Assembly (NCBI RefSeq): GCF_009914755.1
Contig: NC_060930.1
Strand: one strand, 5' to 3'
Length of the DNA stretch: 64,000 nucleotides
Origin: the human T2T-CHM13v2.0 reference genome, Homo sapiens
The notes below the pieces were generated by a model. That model was not told the DNA's origin. It searched no databases and saw nothing but the letters and a program-made list of their open reading frames with translations. Made by a program: the position numbers and the translations under genes. Positions 38,224 through 56,378 of the stretch are shown piece after piece. Position 1 is the first letter of the stretch, and each line of letters begins with the position of its first letter.

Positions 38224-38241
38224 ATCCCTGTACAGCCAAAT
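38224..38241 (-). CDS. PTPRK: Alternative 18-nt microexon IWLYRD inside D1
   Basis: tttgggctgtAG|ATTTGGCTGTACAGGGAT|GTAAGT; phase 0-0. Confidence 0.85.
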
Positions 38242-41694: not shown

Positions 41695-41879
41695 CTCATA
41701 TTCCTCTTTGAACCCATAGCTGTCTGATGTCTTCATGAGATTAATGTGCTGCAGTAAATCAGCTACCCTGATGGCTGGATGCAGCTGTCCTGTCTGGTAA
41801 GGGGATTCCGTCCCCTCACAGAGGTAGCGAGGTACGTCTAGAAGGCGACTGGACTCTGCTGTAGCACTGTGGTTCTCAT
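41695..41879 (-). CDS. PTPRK: Exon (185 nt): (Y)[61 protein letters not shown]
   Basis: gccAG|ATGAGAAC ... GAG|gtgaat; ORF 41680..41886. Confidence 0.97.
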
Positions 41880-44171
41880 CTGGCATTTTTCAGATTTCAG
41901 AAGATTAAAAAAGAGACAAAGTTATCTTGTTTAATATATGTATCTATGCAATGAAGATTTTAAGACCTTAAGATCTTTCTGATAACAAGAGGAATTCTGG
42001 GAAAGAAATATCATACAGTATAGGCCTAGACAGTATCCCCAAAGACAAAACTCAAGGTTTCAGGTGAGAGTATATTATGTGTATATCAGCAAGACAACAG
42101 ACACTGTGAGATGCAGGGAGACATCTGATAGACCTTTTAAAAGCTTAAGCGGGAAATTTTGCTGAGTTGTTTTTCTTGCATCTGTAGTCATAGCAGTATA
42201 GAGTGGGACCAGAGGACCCAGCTGTCAAGTGGAGGTGTTTTCATGGTCTATTAAGTCGACCAAACTCCTTCCCAACCATATCCCAACCTCCCTCAGAGAT
42301 ACCCGATCTAGGTGACCCATCCCCAAAGGGCTGCTCTTCTTGTTCTCGTGGCCCTATTCTCTGGGGCTTTTTACCACAACACACTCTGCACTGGGAAACA
42401 TGGGCATTCCACATGATCACCCCCTGATGCCACTCTGTCTGCTAGCCAGACTACACGTGCATTTATATTCAACCTCTGCCGCCTTGACTTATTACTGTTA
42501 TTGTTTTTATTGCAAATGTATTTTGAGTCTCTTGGCCACGCTGCGAGAGAAATCAGGGCGCGCTTCTGGAGCAAAATGTGGGTTCCTCCCCTGGAAGTCT
42601 TTTCTGGCCCCTCCAGGTTGAGTTACAAAGCTCCTTCTTTATGTTCCCATGACCTCTTATTCATTTTTACATGTCATTTCACTTGCTCTATATTTTAATG
42701 ATTTATCTACTTGGCTATTTTCCTCACTAAATTCTGAACACACAGTACAGAGACAGAATATTTTTCTTTCTATTCCTAGTGCCTGATGCATAACAGTAAC
42801 TCAATAAATATTCCAATGAATGAATTAAAAAGTCAACTGAATCCCTGACCACTCACAATTAAGCGTAAGTCCCTTCCCAATTGTGTTATTAGCTTAAAAA
42901 GAAAAGAAACTTTAAATTCTTTTTCTGTCATAAGAAGGAAGAAAAGAACAAGAACATTTTTGCCTATGAAGAATAAACAGTACTTTAATGACCGAAGTAC
43001 TAAACATTACAACGAGAAGCATGCTCATATTTATCACATTTAAACTTACCACTTAAAAAAAAAAACAAATGTTTTAAGGGGTGTTACTTTGAAAAGCATT
43101 ATACCGTCATACTCATTAACAGAAGAGAAAATACACTCTTAGGGGAACTTTTTTTTTTAATGATAATGCATACTGTAGAGAATGATATTTAATTAACAGA
43201 TAAACATATTTCAAGTGCTAGTACATTTGCCTGTTCTATCACCAACTCTACAAATAGGATATAGCAAAAAATGAATTGTTGTCCCCATGATAAACATTTT
43301 TTCTTCCTGGAGAAGGGAAAAAAAAAAGAACCCTACAATCAGATTTGTGTGCCTCTGTAATTTAGCTTGATTGCATTTATCTTTACTCCCTCTTATTAAG
43401 CTGAATGCTCTTTTTGTAGCATTCATTCCTAAAAATACACTGAATCAAAAAATCCCTGATAGATTCTGTTGTGACCTAACCACTCAAGTGAATTCATGTC
43501 TTTTACTCAGATTTTGCCCACCCCTCTACACAAAAACATTGGCTAACAAACATGATTCATGAGAGTTTCCTGTTCTCACTATGCGACCAAAGTCAATGGA
43601 TCTACTTCTATTAAAATATTACAATCAACAGACCGACATAAAGAATAAATACATCTCCCCAGAAAAATTAAATTCAGAAGCAATTGATTTGGGCACTGCC
43701 ACAGAATATACAGTTAAGGATGAGAAGTAAAGAGAACAGATAACGTCAGAGAGGCAAAATGCAATCACTCAAGCTGGAAGAAGGTAGCCAGGGCTCAGTG
43801 GAGCAGCCCCAGAGCTCACTTTTACCTGCTGGAGTAGCAGAATATTTACAATTGAAAAAGGCTCAGTGAGAAACACAGAATTCACCCATATTCCAAATCT
43901 TACAGATGATTGTGTCCCAATATAAAATAGACAGTGCCTTTTGTTTTGCATTAAGCTTTAATACAGTAGTACAATGAGCAGTAAGGTCTTTAAAATAATC
44001 ACATATGCATTATTAATCTCAATACATTTCCACCTCATTAAACCACCTAATAATGTGACTAGTAGTGAGGGTACACGTACTAATCATTATCCTTATTATA
44101 CATTTAAGAATAATAACTTGAAATATATCCTTGATTGAAAGGTTTTCTAGAGTTCTTTGCAATACACTTAC

Positions 44172-44183
44172 CTGTTATAGGAA
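44172..44183 (-). CDS. PTPRK: Alternative 12-nt microexon, (V/F)PIT(D)
   Basis: tactgcttcattgggtttaAG|TTCCTATAACAG|GTAAGT; perfect donor, phase 1-1. Confidence 0.78.
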
Positions 44184-46172
44184 CTTAAACCCAATGAAGC
44201 AGTAAAACACAAAAACCAAAAATACGAATCAGTATGAAAAGTTTCTAAGCCCTTTTAAATCAGTAAGTATTAGCATTAAGCAATATTTGAAGTGATTTCA
44301 GAAACTGCATTATAAATACAAAAATGATTGGATGCAAAACTCTAAAGACCACAATCCTAAGAATGATGAAAAATACAACAAATCATTTCTACATCTAATA
44401 TGATTAATGAGATATTTAGCTTTTAAAGAATGCCAATATATTTTTAAAACCAGCTTGACTTTCAAAATTAAATAAAATGTGTAATGAATGTTTATATAAC
44501 TAGACTTTATGACTCTATTGTGTTAAATCTAGCTTTCCTTAAACATGAATATCCTTTTTCACAGGGAAAATTACTATGATAATTATTACAGTTTATAAAA
44601 CTCATACACATCATCTAATTTTCTCTTTATAATAAAACCCCATGAAAAAGGTATGGTAGGAATTATTATACTGTTTTATAGATGGGAAAACAAAGATGTA
44701 AGGTATTTTTATGAGTTCATATTGTAAATCCACAGGAGGACCGAGACTTGGACTTTACATATGTGTAGAAAATTATTGTAAGGAAACTTTTAACATTTAG
44801 GCAACTAATTTTTTTCCAATTAGTTCTCAATATTTTAATTGAAATTTATTTATTAACTTTATACTGACAGCATTCCACAGTGCTTAGCAGAAGATGACAT
44901 TTTCAGAGGCATCTGATGTATCCTTAATGATCCCCAGTGATCATGATTTATGGCTCCTCCCTGTGTGATAAGACCACTCCCTGGGGCAAATCCCCAGTTC
45001 ACTTCCTAACCATTATTGGTGGACATCAAAGGGAGAGTGCAAGTAGAGATGAAGAACATTGACTTTTCAGATTATTTTAGAATATATATCCTTTATAGTA
45101 ATTATAAAATTATAATTTTAAATATTTATTTTAGTAAATAAGAGGTATATTTTACATAACTGAGTTAGTTGTGTTGTTCCAAAATATTTTAAAAATGCAA
45201 TTGAACATTGATTGTATGTATAACAAAAATACAAGCATAAAATATAAGTTAAAGTTTTTTGTTCACAAGAAATGTTAAATATAAATAACAAACATGACAT
45301 TTGGGAATTTACAAGATATATTTATTTGATAGTTTCCATATTTCTTTGGTTAAAGCTTAACTAGAAACGCTGGTAAAATTGATATGGAACCTGTAAACAT
45401 ACAGGCAAGCTGATTACTAATCATTGGTGTATAATTAGTCAAGGAACAGGGTACAAAGTGAAATGAAAAATGAAACCCATTCCATTCTTAAATATATAGG
45501 TAGGTTTAAAAATTAATATAATTTTACATCTGTAAAAGCGTTAATTGTCATTAGTAATAGCATTGTCTTAGATGTTATACAGTGGTAACCCAAGTAGCTT
45601 GTTCTAAATTTCTTGAAAGATAACATTACTTATCAGGTAAGGTTCATGTAGAATGTCAAACCCCACATCAAGATTTTAGCAACTTTACCTACATTAAAAC
45701 ATTCTTAATAAAGACAAAAGCTAGAGCAAATGCACATAATCCTAATATTTACTTGTAAATTTGTTCTTTCGTGGTTATAAATTGGGAGGATTTAGAAACA
45801 TCCCTTTCCATTAGGTAGACTTTTACATATAAACTAGTTATTCAGGCAACATTGCACCCTCAGATGTATGCATTTGGCTTCATTCTACTAATTTTGACAC
45901 ATTAATATTAGTCAGACATTAAGGGCCATGTACTTTTGCTCCAAATCTAACAACCAAGAATTGAAGAATACATTAAATAGCATGCCTTGCTAATTTGAAA
46001 TCCACTAGATCTGATATTGGGTTGAACACAGTTGCTCTCTTTGATAATACCATGGCTGTCTATTTTCAAAACCAAGCTGCCTCCTGCACTGTAAATAATC
46101 TCTATGTGGGCAAACCCATGCAAGGAGGTGTGATCCATGCAATGAAAAGATGATAAAGATTTAGGGCCTCAC

Positions 46173-46208
46173 CTAACACAGCAGTCGGTACAAGTGGATC
46201 ATTGGGCA
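46173..46208 (-). CDS. PTPRK: Alternative 36-nt exon, (L)PNDPLVPTAVL
   Basis: ttttcctgcAG|TGCCCAATGATCCACTTGTACCGACTGCTGTGTTAG|GTGAGG; phase 1-1, open frame. Confidence 0.88.
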   Translation of the reverse strand, partial: CPMIHLYRLLC

Positions 46209-48059
46209 CTGCAGGAAAACAAAGCTCATGAAGGAATATATTGCTCTAAAATTGTTTTTTAAAATCTTTTTTCTTTAAAATAGATTTATGCTTTCTTAAG
46301 AAATATAATTATTAAACTTTCTCAGATTACTGTATTCTGCAAATGTAAAATTTTCTCTCTCAGCTTGGGTTATATCTAAACATCAAGAGAGGTGTATCTA
46401 TAATTATGGTTCAGAACTCTGTTTAATTTAAAAAGCCAGAAGATTAAACTTGACATTAAAAAATTAAAGAAAAAAAAACCCATGTATTTTAGATCTATCA
46501 AGTGTAAGGTATTTAAAGAAATAATTATCTCATATTCATTCCAAATAATTTTTTTCAGTTATCTGTGGGAAATAGATTTAATCCTTTCTCTAAGTTCATA
46601 AGTGGATATTTATAGTTACACTGCTGAATTCAAACTTTCAAATAAGGCCCTAAGGTAGGCAATAGATAGACAAGTTTGGGAGGCATGAATGCTTTCAAAA
46701 CCTTAATTGATTAAATATTAAATTAAGTAGTTAAAGAGATGATACATCTTTATTTTCCGCAAAACTTACTTTCAACAGTAATAGTATTTTACATTTTTCT
46801 CTATCATTTATCTATAGTGAAATAAAAATAAAATAGATCTGAAAGGCCCTGTCATGATTATAACTAAATTCCAAAATGACTCATGTATAGCATCCTTAAC
46901 TACTAATTTGGTATACATATATACATAGAAAATGATGGGCTTCATTTTAGATCCAATAGTTACTGAAAAATTTCTCCAAGCTGAACAATTCAGAAAAAAA
47001 CTTCCCTCTTTACATACAAGCATACAACCTACAAATACTTTGTTTTCAATCTTACTATTACATATGTTCATAGTTTGTACAGGAGATAATACTTATATTG
47101 TTTCTTTGCTTATACCCATGTTTTCCAAACCGGGGTGAGCATATCTCTGCGATCTGAGCCAAATGCCATAAGGCCCAAGTTATACAAGGCCAGTATACTC
47201 AAGAGATATACCTGATTTGCCTGCCTCAAGCATCAGTTTTACTTGAGGATTTGAAGAAACAAAGTTAGGCAATTTCACTTAAATTTAATTAACTTAAACA
47301 GATGCACTATAGAACAGAATATAACATTCATATGAAATTTGAAAATAAACAGTAATATTGATTCTGGGGTAATTATTAAAATCATCTGCTTTTAAATGGT
47401 ACTTCAGTGGAAATATTTTAAAAGCCTTGCCTTCATAGACCAACATTAGGAATTTTCAAGACAGATGGATGGATGAATTTCACTATGCCTTGCAAAACCC
47501 CCAATTCAAGTATACTTTTGGACTTCACACCAGATACTTAAGAGCATGTAGACTAATGTTTCCCTGAGTTAACTTTTTAGTATTGCAATTTTCCAGGAGT
47601 CTACAATATACTACTTTAATGCAATGATTTTACCTATGTCAATAATTCCCAAAAAGAATTACTGTTTCCTCTTATCGCAAAAGAGACTTTCATCTTACAC
47701 AAAGGAAGATGCAAATGGAAAAAGAATTATAAATTCTGACATGAACTAACTTTTTGTAGGCAATCGTGTATTTCCACTTAAAGCAATGACACGTGCTATG
47801 GACTGAGTGGTATATGTTTGGAATATCCCTTGTGATACAGTAATAAAATTCATAGAGTTTGAAGTTAAACTAAATCCAGTATCAATCTTGATGAGAATCC
47901 TTCTTGTAAATTCCATAATATTCTCCATCTCTTTCTCTTCTTTCTAGCTGCTTCTCCCCTCACTTTCCTACTCTCTCTCATTACTCAAAAGGTATCGTGT
48001 AGAATTCAAAGTGAAATGAGTTGTAACATCATTTATTAAAATTTTAATGAAAAACTTAC

Positions 48060-48220
48060 ATCTTGGACTAAAGTTATGTTGGTCCATGAAGGTGATGGAA
48101 AGAGGATCTTCTGCATGCAGAGTGCTCTGATCAGCATAACTTCGATCCATTGCATTCACCATGTGAGTCATCTCCTGCCGGGTATTCCCCATGGCATCTT
48201 TGCGTTTTTTAGCAAGTTTG
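48060..48220 (-). CDS. PTPRK: Juxtamembrane exon (161 nt): KLAKKRKDAMGNTRQEMTHMVNAMDRSYADQSTLHAEDPLSITFMDQHNFSPR
   Basis: cttggcAG|CAAACTT ... AGAT|gtaagt; lies inside ORF 47968..48246. Confidence 0.97.
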
Positions 48221-53136: not shown

Positions 53137-53166
53137 AGGTAGTAGGAGTAAGAATAGTAGCTCCTC
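53137..53166 (-). CDS. PTPRK: Alternative 30-nt microexon giving (R)RSYYSYSYY(L) in the juxtamembrane region
   Basis: ttgcttgccAG|GAGGAGCTACTATTCTTACTCCTACTACCT|GTAAGT; 30 nt, phase 2-2, no stop in frame. Confidence 0.88.
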
Positions 53167-56100
53167 CTGGCAAGCAAATCACAGACAGTGGAAAAAGAGA
53201 AGCAATGGTGAATGAAAAGCGTGACTCTGTCACATTCAATAAAGCAGAAAAATGTGCGTTAAAAAATAAAATAAAATAAAATAAAATTCATGTTTTTTTT
53301 GCTTTGCATTTCAATTTGCTCATGCATTGTTAGTTTTTTTTGCCATGCAATTAAACAGACAGATATGCAATATAAAAATAAAATTTAAAATACATAATTT
53401 GGAAAAAATAACATGCTGGTATTTCTTATTGCCAAAATATTGAAAAATTAAATGGATTGTGTATTTTCAACATGCAGTTAAGCATAATATCATCCATTAT
53501 CTAAATATGACAGATGGAACAGCTGTGCATAGAACTTGTGTACTATATAGATTATTTTTCTTTAGATACAAAACATAAAGATCTATTATGTTAATATATC
53601 ATATATACAGAATAACACCTAAATTTCTACAAACAAGTTATTATATCTTAATGGTACATAGGTATATACATATGTTATGTGAATATACATATATACCATA
53701 TACTATATATACACAGATACTTCTACAGTAGATGCATGTGAACATGATATCATACACAAACATTTACTGTATTGAAACATAATTTCAAATTTATGTTTGA
53801 GTTATTAATGTGTTCATGCTGTGCATGTAAAATATAATACACAACCAATGAAAAAATGGCATACATTTGGAAATAATTGAATAGCGATTAAATTAAAAAA
53901 TGACATTGCGTTTTGAAAGATGCAATATCCCTTTTCTTAGCCTAAAAACTTACTTTATACATATCCTTAGCTGTAAAACTTTACTCAATTGAATTATACA
54001 CCATTCTTTTGCAAAACAACCAAAAAGACATGGAACTGTTTTCCGCATAAGAAATATATCTACATGTATTCATCCCAGTGAGGGATAAAATCAAACTTAA
54101 CAATTTCCCACTAAAATGTAGATAAGAGGCTAAAGTAATTTCCTTTTCCATTATTTTTATTATAAATTTATATATTAAAAGGGAAACATTTTATATTAAT
54201 AGTTTTAAGCTATACTTGATGATAATATCCAATGCAATGCTGCTATATCTATACTTTTTTATATGTATGATAAACATACTTGTGATTAAAGCATACATGG
54301 TACATGTGTGACACGCTACATATGAGTAAAAGTCATTACAAAATTGCTTTGGTAAGTAAGAAATTCAAGTAATGTAGATATAAATACTATATATTAGAAG
54401 GTAACATATCTAAATAATGAAACCTGGTCTATCTTTAAAAGTGCAGCTTTTCCTGGGTATAAAGGTGATGGTGAGGAACAGAAGCAAAAGCCCTAGCATA
54501 CTTTCTATCAAAAGACAATCAAAGCATAATTATGAAAGCTCAAATGTTAAATATTTTAATAGAGAGGCTCATTAACTTAACCATTTAATATATGAACCAG
54601 AAAATCAAGTTGTCATATTACACAATTTTAGAGAGCTGTCAGAGCATTTTACCTTCCCCCAAAATCTTGCTTAGTGATGGTTTTAGCATACTTTAGGAGG
54701 TTAATTTTTCAATTTTTTCATTATTGCTAAATCAGAGGCCTGGATAGGGAGAGTTATCAAGACAAATGAATGTTTTCAAATAAATAACAAATAAAACTAA
54801 ATAGTTTAGCCCAATTCTAGCTGAATGAGGATATAATCAGAAGCCACTTTCATGTTTACATCCAATCTGAAGTGACCAGAACATTGTGAAGCAATGTTTA
54901 GTTAACTTTACTCTCTAAATTGTTTACTTAAGTCTCCAAATACAAATTTAAACTAAACAGAGACATAAGGTCTGAAGGTTACATTTGGTGATTTTTATTG
55001 ATCTTTACTGGCAAATTTTTATTGCTAAAATACTTAAAACTTTTGCCTCACATATGATGTATTTTCCAACCACAGAGGGAGACAACAGCAAGAGAAAGCA
55101 CTATTTGGGGAAAGCACGTATGTAGCTAATTTAACACAAAACACTATAATGCATACCTAATGTTTCTAATGCAGATGTGTCTTCTCCAACATATATATCT
55201 CCAGGGGATAATCGTAAAGAGGCAATATATTAAAATAAACTCTGATGGAATCATTAAAACATGTAGTATGAGTCTTATCTATAATGTTAATGCTTTATTT
55301 CAAGTATAAAATAACTATAATAGTAAACTAGATAATTTAATGTAATATAAGCAACATCACTTATTATATTTTTCAATAGAATTCACTGATCACAACCACT
55401 TCTATACACCAAACTATTTTAGGACTGTACTTTTGCTTATAAATTTTTTTTTAAAAGTCCTTCCAAATTGTAGCATTAACCCAAATACATGATGGGAAGG
55501 ATTAGAGTGCTATATTAGTTTCCAAGACAATGCCTTACAGATTTATGGCATTTTATATAATGTACAATAGCTCATATTATAAAAACTGTGTACTTTGAAA
55601 TGCTTTTCATCAGGAATATACTTTGGTCTCCAGAGCAAAGCTCAGTTTAAATTCCAGTAGGTCTCAGTATCTTCAAGTAACGTCAGAAGATGGTGATATT
55701 AGTTGATATAGTATAAAAAGTTAATGTTCAATTAAAACAATTTACTCTCTATTTTAAAAGGCTAAAATTTTTAGTCAATGAATATTTAATGTACAATTTT
55801 ACTAAATAATGTTTATATTCTTCTCGTATCTTATTTGTAGCCAAGAAGTAGAAAAATACAGAAAAAGAGCACAAAATAATTCCTAGACCACAGCCCAAGT
55901 ATCACAATAAATCCATATTTTGCCATTGTTAATAATAACACTTCAAATATAAGATAAATGATCTCAAGTACCTTTGCATTTGAGACATTTAAATTCGGAT
56001 ATTAATTTCTAGGTCAACTTAACAAAAAGCATATGTTTATATCCAAAATTAAACTGCAAATAACCAAATAAGAATTTATTAGAAAGCATGTCCAATAGAC

Positions 56101-56239: not shown

Positions 56240-56378
56240 CTCTTTTTTACAATTAATATGACAACTAGGAGAAGGAGGATGAACACCAAAATTCCAGCAC
56301 TAATTCCTGCTATTTTCACCACTCTGTCTGTCTGCTTGGCGGGATCTGGGATCACTTCTGGTTCTTCTGTTGCTGCTG
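56240..56378 (-). CDS. PTPRK: PTPRK transmembrane exon (139 nt): (A)AATEEPEVIPDPAKQTDRVVKIAGISAGILVFILLLLVVILIVKK(S)
   Basis: Acceptor ...ccattTAG|CAGCAGCA and donor AG|gtaagg; hydrophobic TM segment; phase 1 to phase 2, matches the next exon. Confidence 0.96.

What the first reader, a model, noticed from the sequence alone, without database searches (positions are those of the whole stretch)
41877..48060. A junction-encoded Tyr (Grb2-type YEN motif) is erased by inclusion of either of two cassette exons
Seen: the Tyr codon in ...SPR-Y-ENH... is split T|AT between exons 48060 and 41879. Both intervening cassettes (36 nt and 12 nt) end in G, so any inclusion changes that codon to G|AT (Asp). 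Products are SPRLPNDPLVPTAVLDENH, SPRFPITDENH or SPRLPNDPLVPTAVLVPITDENH. Established: pY-x-N is the Grb2 SH2 consensus. Inference: splicing acts as an on/off switch for a phosphotyrosine docking site rather than simply adding spacer.
Basis: partly seen in the sequence, partly recalled or inferred. Interest (0 to 1): 0.72.

Follow-up and report, generated by a model that had tools for sequence, protein, structure and literature searches.

The report
PTPRK splice junction swaps Tyr for Asp
In the human phosphatase gene PTPRK, skipping two small optional exons creates a tyrosine at the exon join and including either one replaces it with aspartate; this arrangement is ancient and real, but nothing yet shows that the tyrosine is a signalling switch.

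Summary
Exon 48220-48060 ends in T and exon 41879-41695 starts with AT, so skipping gives SPR-Y-ENH (Tyr831). The 36-nt and 12-nt cassettes both end in G, so inclusion gives Asp.

The module is old. Of 120 listed PTPRK proteins, 70 skip-type models from mammals to gar and teleosts read R-Y-E-N-H. All 22 clean inclusion models read D-E-N-H. R-Y-E-N-H is invariant in 19 of 19 distinct local variants, while flanking positions vary.

PTPRM carries the same T|AT junction and homologous cassettes, but reads Y-E-T/S-H in tetrapods. PTPRT and PTPRU cannot encode Tyr there.

The cassette peptide is itself conserved, so it is more than an eraser or spacer. Cassettes ending in G are the default: 10 of 16 exons here do.

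I found no evidence that Tyr831 is phosphorylated. The 36-nt exon is about 90% included in human cortical neurons and drops in FTD.

Verdict: this is a real, conserved motif swap. The Grb2 switch is plausible but untested.

The parts
48060..48220 (-). Constitutive juxtamembrane exon (RefSeq exon 15 of 30). It encodes KLAKKRK...NFSPR. Its last base, T at 48060, is the first base of the split codon.
   Evidence: The donor is T|gtaagt. PTPRM has the same ...AGA T|gtaagt exon end.
46173..46208 (-). 36-nt cassette exon, phase 1-1, encoding (L)PNDPLVPTAVL. It ends in G, so the next codon becomes GAT (Asp).
   Evidence: The peptide is present in ortholog models from mammals, snake, frog, coelacanth, gar, eel and mormyrid. 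A homologous 27-nt exon encoding DPFVPTAIL exists in PTPRM. The exon is about 90% included in control human cortical neurons.
44172..44183 (-). 12-nt microexon TTCCTATAACAG, phase 1-1. It encodes (V/F)PIT and ends in G, giving Asp.
   Evidence: VPIT-D-ENH occurs in 8 of 120 ortholog models (mammals, turtles) and in one unnamed fish-like representative, P0253. PTPRM has a homologous 12-nt exon encoding VPIN. A TGC lies 16-18 nt upstream of the acceptor (read).
41695..41879 (-). Constitutive exon (RefSeq exon 16). It begins AT GAG AAC CAC and encodes (Y/D)[11 protein letters not shown]... running into the start of phosphatase domain D1.
   Evidence: The exon is 95-100% identical from human to gar and bichir. 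Solved D1 structures begin only at PAIRVADLL, 33 residues downstream of the junction.
41872..41879 (-). The last two bases of the split Tyr/Asp codon (AT) followed by the Glu and Asn codons. With T at 48060 this gives Y-E-N; with a cassette's final G it gives D-E-N.
42957..43306 (-). 350-nt alternative last exon in the same intron, with no GT donor. Spliced directly to 48060 it reads T|GA, an immediate stop after SPR. Spliced after the 36-nt cassette it adds GRKNVYHGDNNSFFAISYL and then a stop.
   Evidence: An ATTAAA lies about 25 nt before the annotated exon end.

Best explanation
This is an ancient, regulated cassette-exon module in the juxtamembrane linker of PTPRK. That linker is probably disordered. 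The module swaps one short conserved peptide for another.

When both cassettes are skipped, which is the RefSeq Select form, the two exons meet in a split codon T|AT. The linker then carries the invariant pentad R-Y-E-N-H. When the 36-nt exon is included, with or without the 12-nt microexon, a conserved peptide LPNDPLVPTAVL(VPIT) is inserted and the junction residue becomes Asp. Inclusion is the predominant state in human cortical neurons.

Shown here:
- the sequence facts;
- conservation of both states across bony vertebrates;
- the same module in the paralog PTPRM;
- high inclusion in neurons.

Inferred:
- both the inserted peptide and the junction residue are under selection as parts of isoform-specific binding motifs;
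- the module therefore changes which partners the linker binds, rather than acting only by removing one tyrosine or only by lengthening a spacer.

Whether Tyr831 is phosphorylated is open.
For: - Sequence and products.
- Orthologs (parsed). Of the 120 listed proteins (2733 passed E <= 0.001), 70 read ..R-Y-ENH, 14 read RLPNDPLVPTAVL-D-ENH, 8 read ..AVLVPIT-D-ENH, and 6 bird models read ..AVLGEDP-N-ENH.
- R-Y-E-N-H is invariant in 19 of 19 distinct local variants, while positions -3, -2 and +4 to +6 vary.
- PTPRM has the T|AT junction, a 27-nt DPFVPTAIL exon and a 12-nt VPIN exon, each ending in G.
- The 36-nt exon (chr6:128003197-128003232, minus, hg38) is 90% included in control excitatory and inhibitory neurons and 37% in FTD inhibitory neurons. 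Delta-PSI is -0.53 in inhibitory neurons and -0.40 in astrocytes (PMC12558363, passages, supplement Table S2).
- The linker is low-confidence in the AlphaFold2 model. Residues 66-212 of P0006 have pLDDT below 50, and the Tyr is at residue 119.
- No solved structure covers the linker.
Against: - No partner of either state is known, and I could test no binding.
- The whole downstream exon is 95-100% conserved, so conservation of E-N-H is not specific to the Tyr-containing state.
- The AlphaFold2 model is weak overall (mean pLDDT 60.5 from 58 aligned sequences), so 'disordered' is only suggested.
- Most ortholog isoforms are computational gene models, not sequenced cDNAs.
- Mapping the FTD paper's hg38 exon onto window 46173-46208 rests on gene, strand and the 36-nt length. 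The match of its distance from the gene's 3' end (within 6 nt) uses a gene coordinate I recall rather than one from a tool.
Confidence: 0.55

Rival explanations
1. Tyr831 in the skip isoform is phosphorylated and docks the Grb2 SH2 domain (pY-E-N). Inclusion of either cassette exists mainly to switch this docking site off.
For: - Y-E-N fits the pY-x-N consensus (established knowledge).
- R-Y-E-N-H is invariant in 19 of 19 local variants with variable flanks.
- It is the only one of 4 intracellular YxN motifs outside the PTP-domain core motifs. The intracellular part has 35 Tyr, and 1.5 YxN are expected by chance.
- It lies in a low-confidence, unsolved linker.
- In tetrapod PTPRM, where an extra 75-nt exon makes Asp the usual junction residue, the Asn has drifted to Thr or Ser. 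Unnamed PTPRM-like sequences P0352 and P0150 keep E-N-H. This fits selection on Asn only where Tyr is commonly present.
- Review PMC12067748 (passage) cites Drosopoulos 1999 for Grb2/MEK1-dependent neurite outgrowth on PTPkappa.
- Other phosphatases carry Grb2-binding pYxN sites: RPTPalpha Tyr789, SHP2 Tyr542 and Tyr580 (recalled, not from a call).
Against: - No paper in the library holds the tryptic peptide, PTPRK with Y831, or PTPRK with Tyr831, Tyr832, Y832 or pY831.
- The CAL27 pTyr dataset lists PTPRK pY858 and pY916 but not this peptide, in 2 supplement files, one of them cut when stored.
- The peptide is absent from the 8 held supplement files of the PTPRK eLife study, which enriched with Src and Grb2 SH2 superbinders. 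Some of those files were also cut.
- The cassette peptides are conserved in their own right.
- Cassettes ending in G are the default.
- Neurons mostly include the 36-nt exon, so the neuronal Grb2 report is unlikely to run through this Tyr.
- Arg at position -1 is not typical of favoured tyrosine-kinase sites (recalled).
Confidence: 0.17
2. The Tyr/Asp change is a passenger. Selection acts on the inserted peptides, or simply on linker length. The junction residue follows mechanically from an inherited phase-1 intron, an exon ending in T, and cassettes ending in the consensus G. Tyr831 has no phospho-signalling role and is at most a structural or neutral residue.
For: - The same T|AT junction exists in PTPRM without Asn at +2, so Tyr at the junction persists without a Grb2 consensus.
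- 10 of 16 exons end in G.
- Bird models use a different second cassette that ends in A and gives Asn (6 of 120), so the replacing residue is not fixed.
- The cassette cores are conserved across roughly 400 million years and across two paralogs.
- No phospho evidence was found.
Against: - Tyr is invariant in all 70 skip-type models and in 19 of 19 local variants, while neighbours at -3, -2 and +4 to +6 vary.
- A neutral junction residue could have drifted, because the exon-end base could change synonymously for the cassette-included forms only in part.
- The T at donor position -1 departs from the consensus G (recalled), yet it is retained in both PTPRK and PTPRM.
Confidence: 0.25

Closest known systems
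PTPRM (RPTP mu) juxtamembrane alternative exons, and the R2B alternative splicing described by Besco et al. 2004 (BMC Genomics 5:14)
   Same: PTPRM has the same exon phase and an upstream exon ending ...AGA T|gtaagt. Its downstream exon starts AT GA(A). It carries a homologous DPFVPTAIL cassette and a 12-nt VPIN microexon, both ending in G. Full skipping gives Tyr and any inclusion gives Asp.
   Different: PTPRM has an extra 75-nt exon (SVSSP...YYP) that makes Asp the usual state. Tetrapod PTPRM reads E-T/S-H rather than E-N-H, so it has no YxN. Besco 2004 could not be read because it is not held. I know it only through citations.
Grb2-binding phosphotyrosines on phosphatases: RPTPalpha Tyr789, SHP2 Tyr542 and Tyr580, and PTPepsilon Tyr638
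   Same: Each is a tyrosine phosphatase that carries its own Y-x-N type site in a flexible segment and can act as an adaptor.
   Different: Those sites are C-terminal, experimentally phosphorylated and shown to bind Grb2. These facts are recalled; only PTPRE Y638 appears in a call, as a passage. For PTPRK Tyr831, neither phosphorylation nor binding is shown, and the site is removable by splicing.
Neural microexons and small cassettes that rewire short linear motifs, such as the R2A RPTP mini-exons meA and meB and the FGFR juxtamembrane VT variant that controls FRS2 docking
   Same: These are very short, frame-preserving, deeply conserved, neuron-regulated exons that alter an interaction surface or linker of a receptor. 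Preprint PMC12871342 lists a PTPRK neural microexon of unknown function (passages).
   Different: Here the change includes a residue encoded across the splice junction. The meA/meB and FGFR VT examples are recalled, and only meA/meB appears in a search listing. The preprint does not say which PTPRK microexon it studied, so I cannot assign it to 44172-44183.

Membership tests
Frame-preserving cassette exon (phase 1-1) | AG acceptor, GT donor and a length divisible by three, with the reading frame open through every combination | tested here: met
   The 36-nt exon sits between cag| and |gtgagg, and the 12-nt exon between aag| and |gtaagt. All four combinations translate without a stop.
Frame-preserving cassette exon (phase 1-1) | Both inclusion and skipping are seen in transcripts or gene models | tested here: met
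   The hub's RefSeq table lists both exons. Ortholog models comprise 70 skip, 14 with +36 and 8 with +36+12, out of 120. The 12-nt-only form appeared in 0 of 120.
Grb2 SH2 docking site (pY-x-N) | Tyr with Asn at +2 in a cytosolic segment | tested here: met
   (Y-E-N-H). The site is cytosolic, about 53 residues after the transmembrane helix.
Grb2 SH2 docking site (pY-x-N) | Motif conserved in orthologs | tested here: met
   70 of 70 skip-type models and 19 of 19 local variants. It is not conserved in the paralogs.
Grb2 SH2 docking site (pY-x-N) | Accessible, non-globular context | tested here: inconclusive
   pLDDT is below 50 across residues 66-212 of the model, but the model is weak (mean 60.5). 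No solved structure covers the site.
Grb2 SH2 docking site (pY-x-N) | The Tyr is phosphorylated in cells | tested here: inconclusive
   It was not found in full-text searches or in two papers' supplements (some files cut when stored). PhosphoSitePlus and other phosphosite databases were not available.
Grb2 SH2 docking site (pY-x-N) | Direct phospho-dependent binding of the Grb2 SH2 domain | not testable with these tools
   No human Grb2 reference sequence and no phosphotyrosine modelling were available. This needs peptide pull-down or ITC.
Neural (SRRM4-type) microexon, for the 12-nt exon | Length of 27 nt or less, with a UGC close upstream of the acceptor | tested here: met
   The exon is 12 nt, with TGC at -18 to -16. 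The criterion itself is recalled and is echoed in preprint PMC12871342.
Neural (SRRM4-type) microexon, for the 12-nt exon | Neuron-enriched inclusion of this particular exon | not tested
   The preprint's PTPRK microexon is not identified by coordinates. No expression data were available.

The most novel reading that the evidence does not exclude
Tyr831 is a genuine, regulated phosphotyrosine docking site for a Grb2-family SH2 domain that exists only in the non-neural (skip) PTPRK isoform. This gives the phosphatase an adaptor output that neurons switch off by exon inclusion. The loss of 36-nt exon inclusion seen in FTD inhibitory neurons and astrocytes would then re-create the site in brain cells.
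Probability: 0.13. Interest if true: 0.7.

Novelty: new member of a known kind. Interest (0 to 1): 0.45.

Why it matters
PTPRK is a tumour-suppressor-type adhesion phosphatase, and its juxtamembrane domain is still described as uncharacterized (eLife 2019, passage).

If the junction Tyr or the inserted peptide is a binding motif, the neuronal and non-neuronal receptors would signal differently from the same catalytic domains. The 36-nt exon is also the most strongly shifted exon listed for inhibitory neurons and astrocytes in a GRN-FTD long-read study. Knowing what the two states bind would therefore give that disease observation a molecular meaning.

The finding also shows that a residue encoded across a splice junction can be held constant for hundreds of millions of years in two paralogs.

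As it stands, the exons are annotated and the signalling role is conjecture.

Tried and rejected
1. Besco et al. 2004 and Drosopoulos et al. 1999 are not held, whether asked for by DOI, PMC id or PubMed id. What those papers say about these exons or about Grb2 is known to me only through citing papers.
3. The representative-protein search returned mostly short single-exon fragments without names. Only a few long rows were useful.
4. I looked for a DPxVPTAxL-like cassette in the PTPRU intron (12 kb) and in 20 kb upstream of the PTPRT exon. There was no core match, only one loose hit without splice sites. This was a regex on three frames, so a diverged exon could have been missed.
5. I first planned to fold an inclusion isoform. 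Candidates P0003 and P0010 turned out to be flawed gene models, with gaps or an insertion in D1. The skip-form model was already low-confidence, so I did not spend the second job.
6. I considered AP-2 (DPF) or SH3 (PxxP) readings of the cassette core. DPF is present only in PTPRM (DPL in PTPRK), and P-x-V-P has no flanking basic residue. These remain guesses with no test.
7. I considered the neuronal Grb2 report as support for the Tyr switch. It is weakened because neurons mostly include the 36-nt exon.
8. No Grb2-PTPRK complex prediction was attempted. The tool offers no human reference sequences and cannot model phosphotyrosine.
Full report
**Observation.**
PTPRK lies on the minus strand of the window.
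- The upstream exon 48220-48060 ends ...AGT CCA AGA T followed by gtaagt.
- The downstream exon 41879-41695 follows ...gccag and starts AT GAG AAC CAC.
- The 36-nt cassette 46208-46173 is flanked by cctgcag and gtgagg and ends in G.
- The 12-nt cassette 44183-44172 is flanked by tttaag and gtaagt and ends in G.

Tyr appears only when both cassettes are skipped, and Asp appears otherwise. The Tyr is residue 831 in 1439-residue numbering. That numbering is fixed by the published pY858 peptide [18 protein letters not shown] (PMC4908701, Table 2) and by my own exon sum.

**Is it more than chance?**
Cassettes that end in G are the rule. In this window, 10 of 16 constitutive PTPRK exons end in G, 4 in T, 1 in A and 1 in C. 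So two cassettes both ending in G is not remarkable. The unusual element is the T that ends the upstream exon.

A YxN motif alone is also not rare. The intracellular part has 35 Tyr and 4 YxN motifs against 1.5 expected. The other three (Tyr916, Tyr940 and Tyr1229) sit in core motifs of the two phosphatase domains, so Tyr831 is the only one in the linker.

**Orthologs.**
I searched with the downstream exon (61 residues) for longer proteins. The search returned 2733 proteins at E <= 0.001, of which 120 were listed. The exon is 100% identical in mammals, birds, snakes and turtles, and 95-98% identical in frogs, caecilian, coelacanth, lungfish, bichir, gar and mormyrid.

Parsing the residues before E-N-H in those 120 proteins gave:
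- 70 read ..R-Y-ENH.
- 14 read RLPNDPLVPTAVL-D-ENH. These include Naja, Leptobrachium, Latimeria, Atractosteus, Synaphobranchus, Scleropages and Paramormyrops.
- 8 read ..AVLVPIT-D-ENH (primate, rodent, deer, seal, three turtles).
- 6 bird models read ..AVLGEDP-N-ENH, using a different second cassette that ends in A.
- 3 carry the 36-nt peptide behind an odd upstream model.
- 1 turtle model (P0029) has an extra CKYNSDRS insert that keeps Tyr.
- 5 did not match my pattern.
- 13 are fragments or odd models.
- None has the 12-nt exon alone.

Among 71 skip-form proteins there are 19 distinct local sequences. R, Y, E, N and H are invariant in all 19. Positions -3, -2, +4, +5 and +6 vary. That is the signature of a short linear motif. 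However, E-N-H is shared with the Asp-containing forms, so it does not single out the Tyr.

**Paralogs.**
A search of the window's own genome found the homologous exons on chr18 (PTPRM), chr1 (PTPRU, plus a second diverged copy) and chr20 (PTPRT).
- PTPRM's upstream exon ends ...GGG AGA T|gtaagt. Its downstream exon starts ag|AT GAA ACC CAC. The T|AT junction is therefore shared, but the motif would be Y-E-T-H.
- PTPRU starts ag|GA GAC and PTPRT starts ag|CA GAT, so neither can encode Tyr.

The 9-kb PTPRM intron holds three exons, each ending in G:
- a 75-nt exon encoding SVSSP...NSYYP;
- a 27-nt exon encoding DPFVPTAIL;
- a 12-nt exon TGCCAATAAATG encoding VPIN.

A second protein search with the PTPRM exon listed 120 proteins. 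My strict pattern sorted them as follows:
- 27 with ..YYP-D-E[TS]H;
- 10 with ..DPFVPTAIL-D;
- 11 with ..AILVPIN-D;
- 14 with NGR-Y-E[TS]H;
- 12 odd models;
- 46 missed by the pattern. Of these, 40 were printed and show the same four forms, with further skip-Tyr examples.

Two unnamed PTPRM-like sequences keep E-N-H (P0150, P0352). The module therefore predates the PTPRK/PTPRM split, and the Asn was lost in tetrapod PTPRM.

No DPxVPTAxL-like exon was found in the PTPRU intron or in 20 kb upstream of the PTPRT exon. That scan was a simple pattern match.

**Usage.**
The RefSeq Select transcript skips both cassettes (hub table).

A single-nucleus long-read study of human cortex reports a 36-nt PTPRK exon on the minus strand at chr6:128003197-128003232 (hg38).
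- It is 90% included in control excitatory and inhibitory neurons.
- It is 83% included in FTD excitatory neurons and 37% in FTD inhibitory neurons (PMC12558363, passage).
- It heads the lists for inhibitory neurons (delta-PSI -0.53) and astrocytes (-0.40) in supplement Table S2.

I equate this exon with 46173-46208 on gene, strand and length. The distance from the gene end agrees within 6 nt, but that check uses a recalled hg38 coordinate.

A preprint lists a PTPRK neural microexon of unknown function but does not identify it (PMC12871342, passages).

**Phosphorylation and Grb2.**
No paper in the library contains the tryptic peptide, PTPRK with Y831, or PTPRK with Tyr831, Tyr832, Y832 or pY831.

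The CAL27 pTyr dataset lists PTPRK pY858 and pY916 but not this peptide (2 supplement files, one cut when stored). The peptide is also absent from the 8 held supplement files of the PTPRK eLife paper (some cut). That study enriched pTyr peptides with Src and Grb2 SH2 superbinders. These are weak negatives.

The only Grb2 link is a review's account of Drosopoulos 1999: neurite outgrowth on PTPkappa was reduced by a Grb2 inhibitory peptide and a MEK1 inhibitor (PMC12067748, passage). The original paper is not held. Because neurons mostly include the 36-nt exon, that effect is unlikely to run through Tyr831.

**Structure.**
Solved R2B D1 structures begin at PAIRVADLL, 33 residues after the junction.

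An AlphaFold2 model of a snake skip-form protein (P0006, alignment A1 of 58 sequences) has mean pLDDT 60.5. Residues 66-212 are below 50 and there is no secondary structure between residues 95 and 156. The Tyr is residue 119. This fits a flexible linker, but the model is weak.

**Conclusion.**
What is there is an annotated, deeply conserved, neuron-regulated splicing module of the R2B juxtamembrane linker. It swaps R-Y-E-N-H for an inserted conserved peptide followed by D-E-N-H.

It lacks any phosphorylation evidence, and it understates the cassettes' own conservation.

I put the motif-swap reading at 0.55, the passenger reading at 0.25 and the Grb2 switch at 0.17. The exons are known. I found the junction Tyr/Asp toggle nowhere in print. 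It is a cheap, testable hypothesis rather than a discovery.

Noticed in passing
window 42957-43306 (-): This is a 350-nt alternative last exon in the same intron, with no GT donor and an ATTAAA about 25 nt before its end. Joined to exon 48060 it reads T|GA, an immediate stop after ...NFSPR. Joined after the 36-nt cassette it adds 19 residues and then stops. Either way it predicts a membrane-anchored PTPRK lacking both phosphatase domains.
   Followed up: partly
window 53137-53166 (-): This 30-nt cassette lies just after the transmembrane helix and encodes RSYYSYSYYL, with 6 Tyr in 10 residues. It also changes a junction residue, from KK-S-KLAKK to KK-R-...L-KLAKK. The same Tyr-rich cassette (SY[YH]SY[ST]YYL) is present in 33 of 381 stored PTPRK and PTPRM proteins.
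   Followed up: partly
window 56375-56378 (-) and 55157-55198 (-): There is a tandem acceptor tttagCAG| that gives transcripts differing by one codon at exon 56378/56375. There is also a 42-nt cassette encoding YICWRRHICIRNI after the transmembrane helix.
   Followed up: no
window 38224-38241 (-): This is an 18-nt microexon (ATTTGGCTGTACAGGGAT, donor gtaagt) inside the D1 coding region. It may be the PTPRK neural microexon of preprint PMC12871342, which gives no coordinates.
   Followed up: no
L003 and L009 (G000:C1:29330822-29330992 and 29339369-29339500, minus): A second, inverted, diverged copy of the PTPRU juxtamembrane exons lies about 185-205 kb from PTPRU on chr1. It is 60% and 45% identical to the PTPRK query, against 66% and 53% for PTPRU itself. 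The acceptor is changed from ctgcag to ctgcgg, so it looks like a partial duplicate or pseudogene.
   Followed up: no
P0150, P0352 (unnamed PTPRM-like proteins): Some PTPRM-like sequences read E-N-H after the junction (NGR-Y-ENH in P0150 and YYP-D-ENH in P0352), whereas all named tetrapod PTPRM rows read E-T-H or E-S-H. This suggests that Asn is ancestral.
   Followed up: partly
window 46173-46208 (-): The 36-nt exon is the first-listed dysregulated exon for inhibitory neurons (delta-PSI -0.53) and astrocytes (-0.40) in a GRN-FTD long-read study (PMC12558363 supplement Table S2). Skipping in disease would restore Tyr831.
   Followed up: partly
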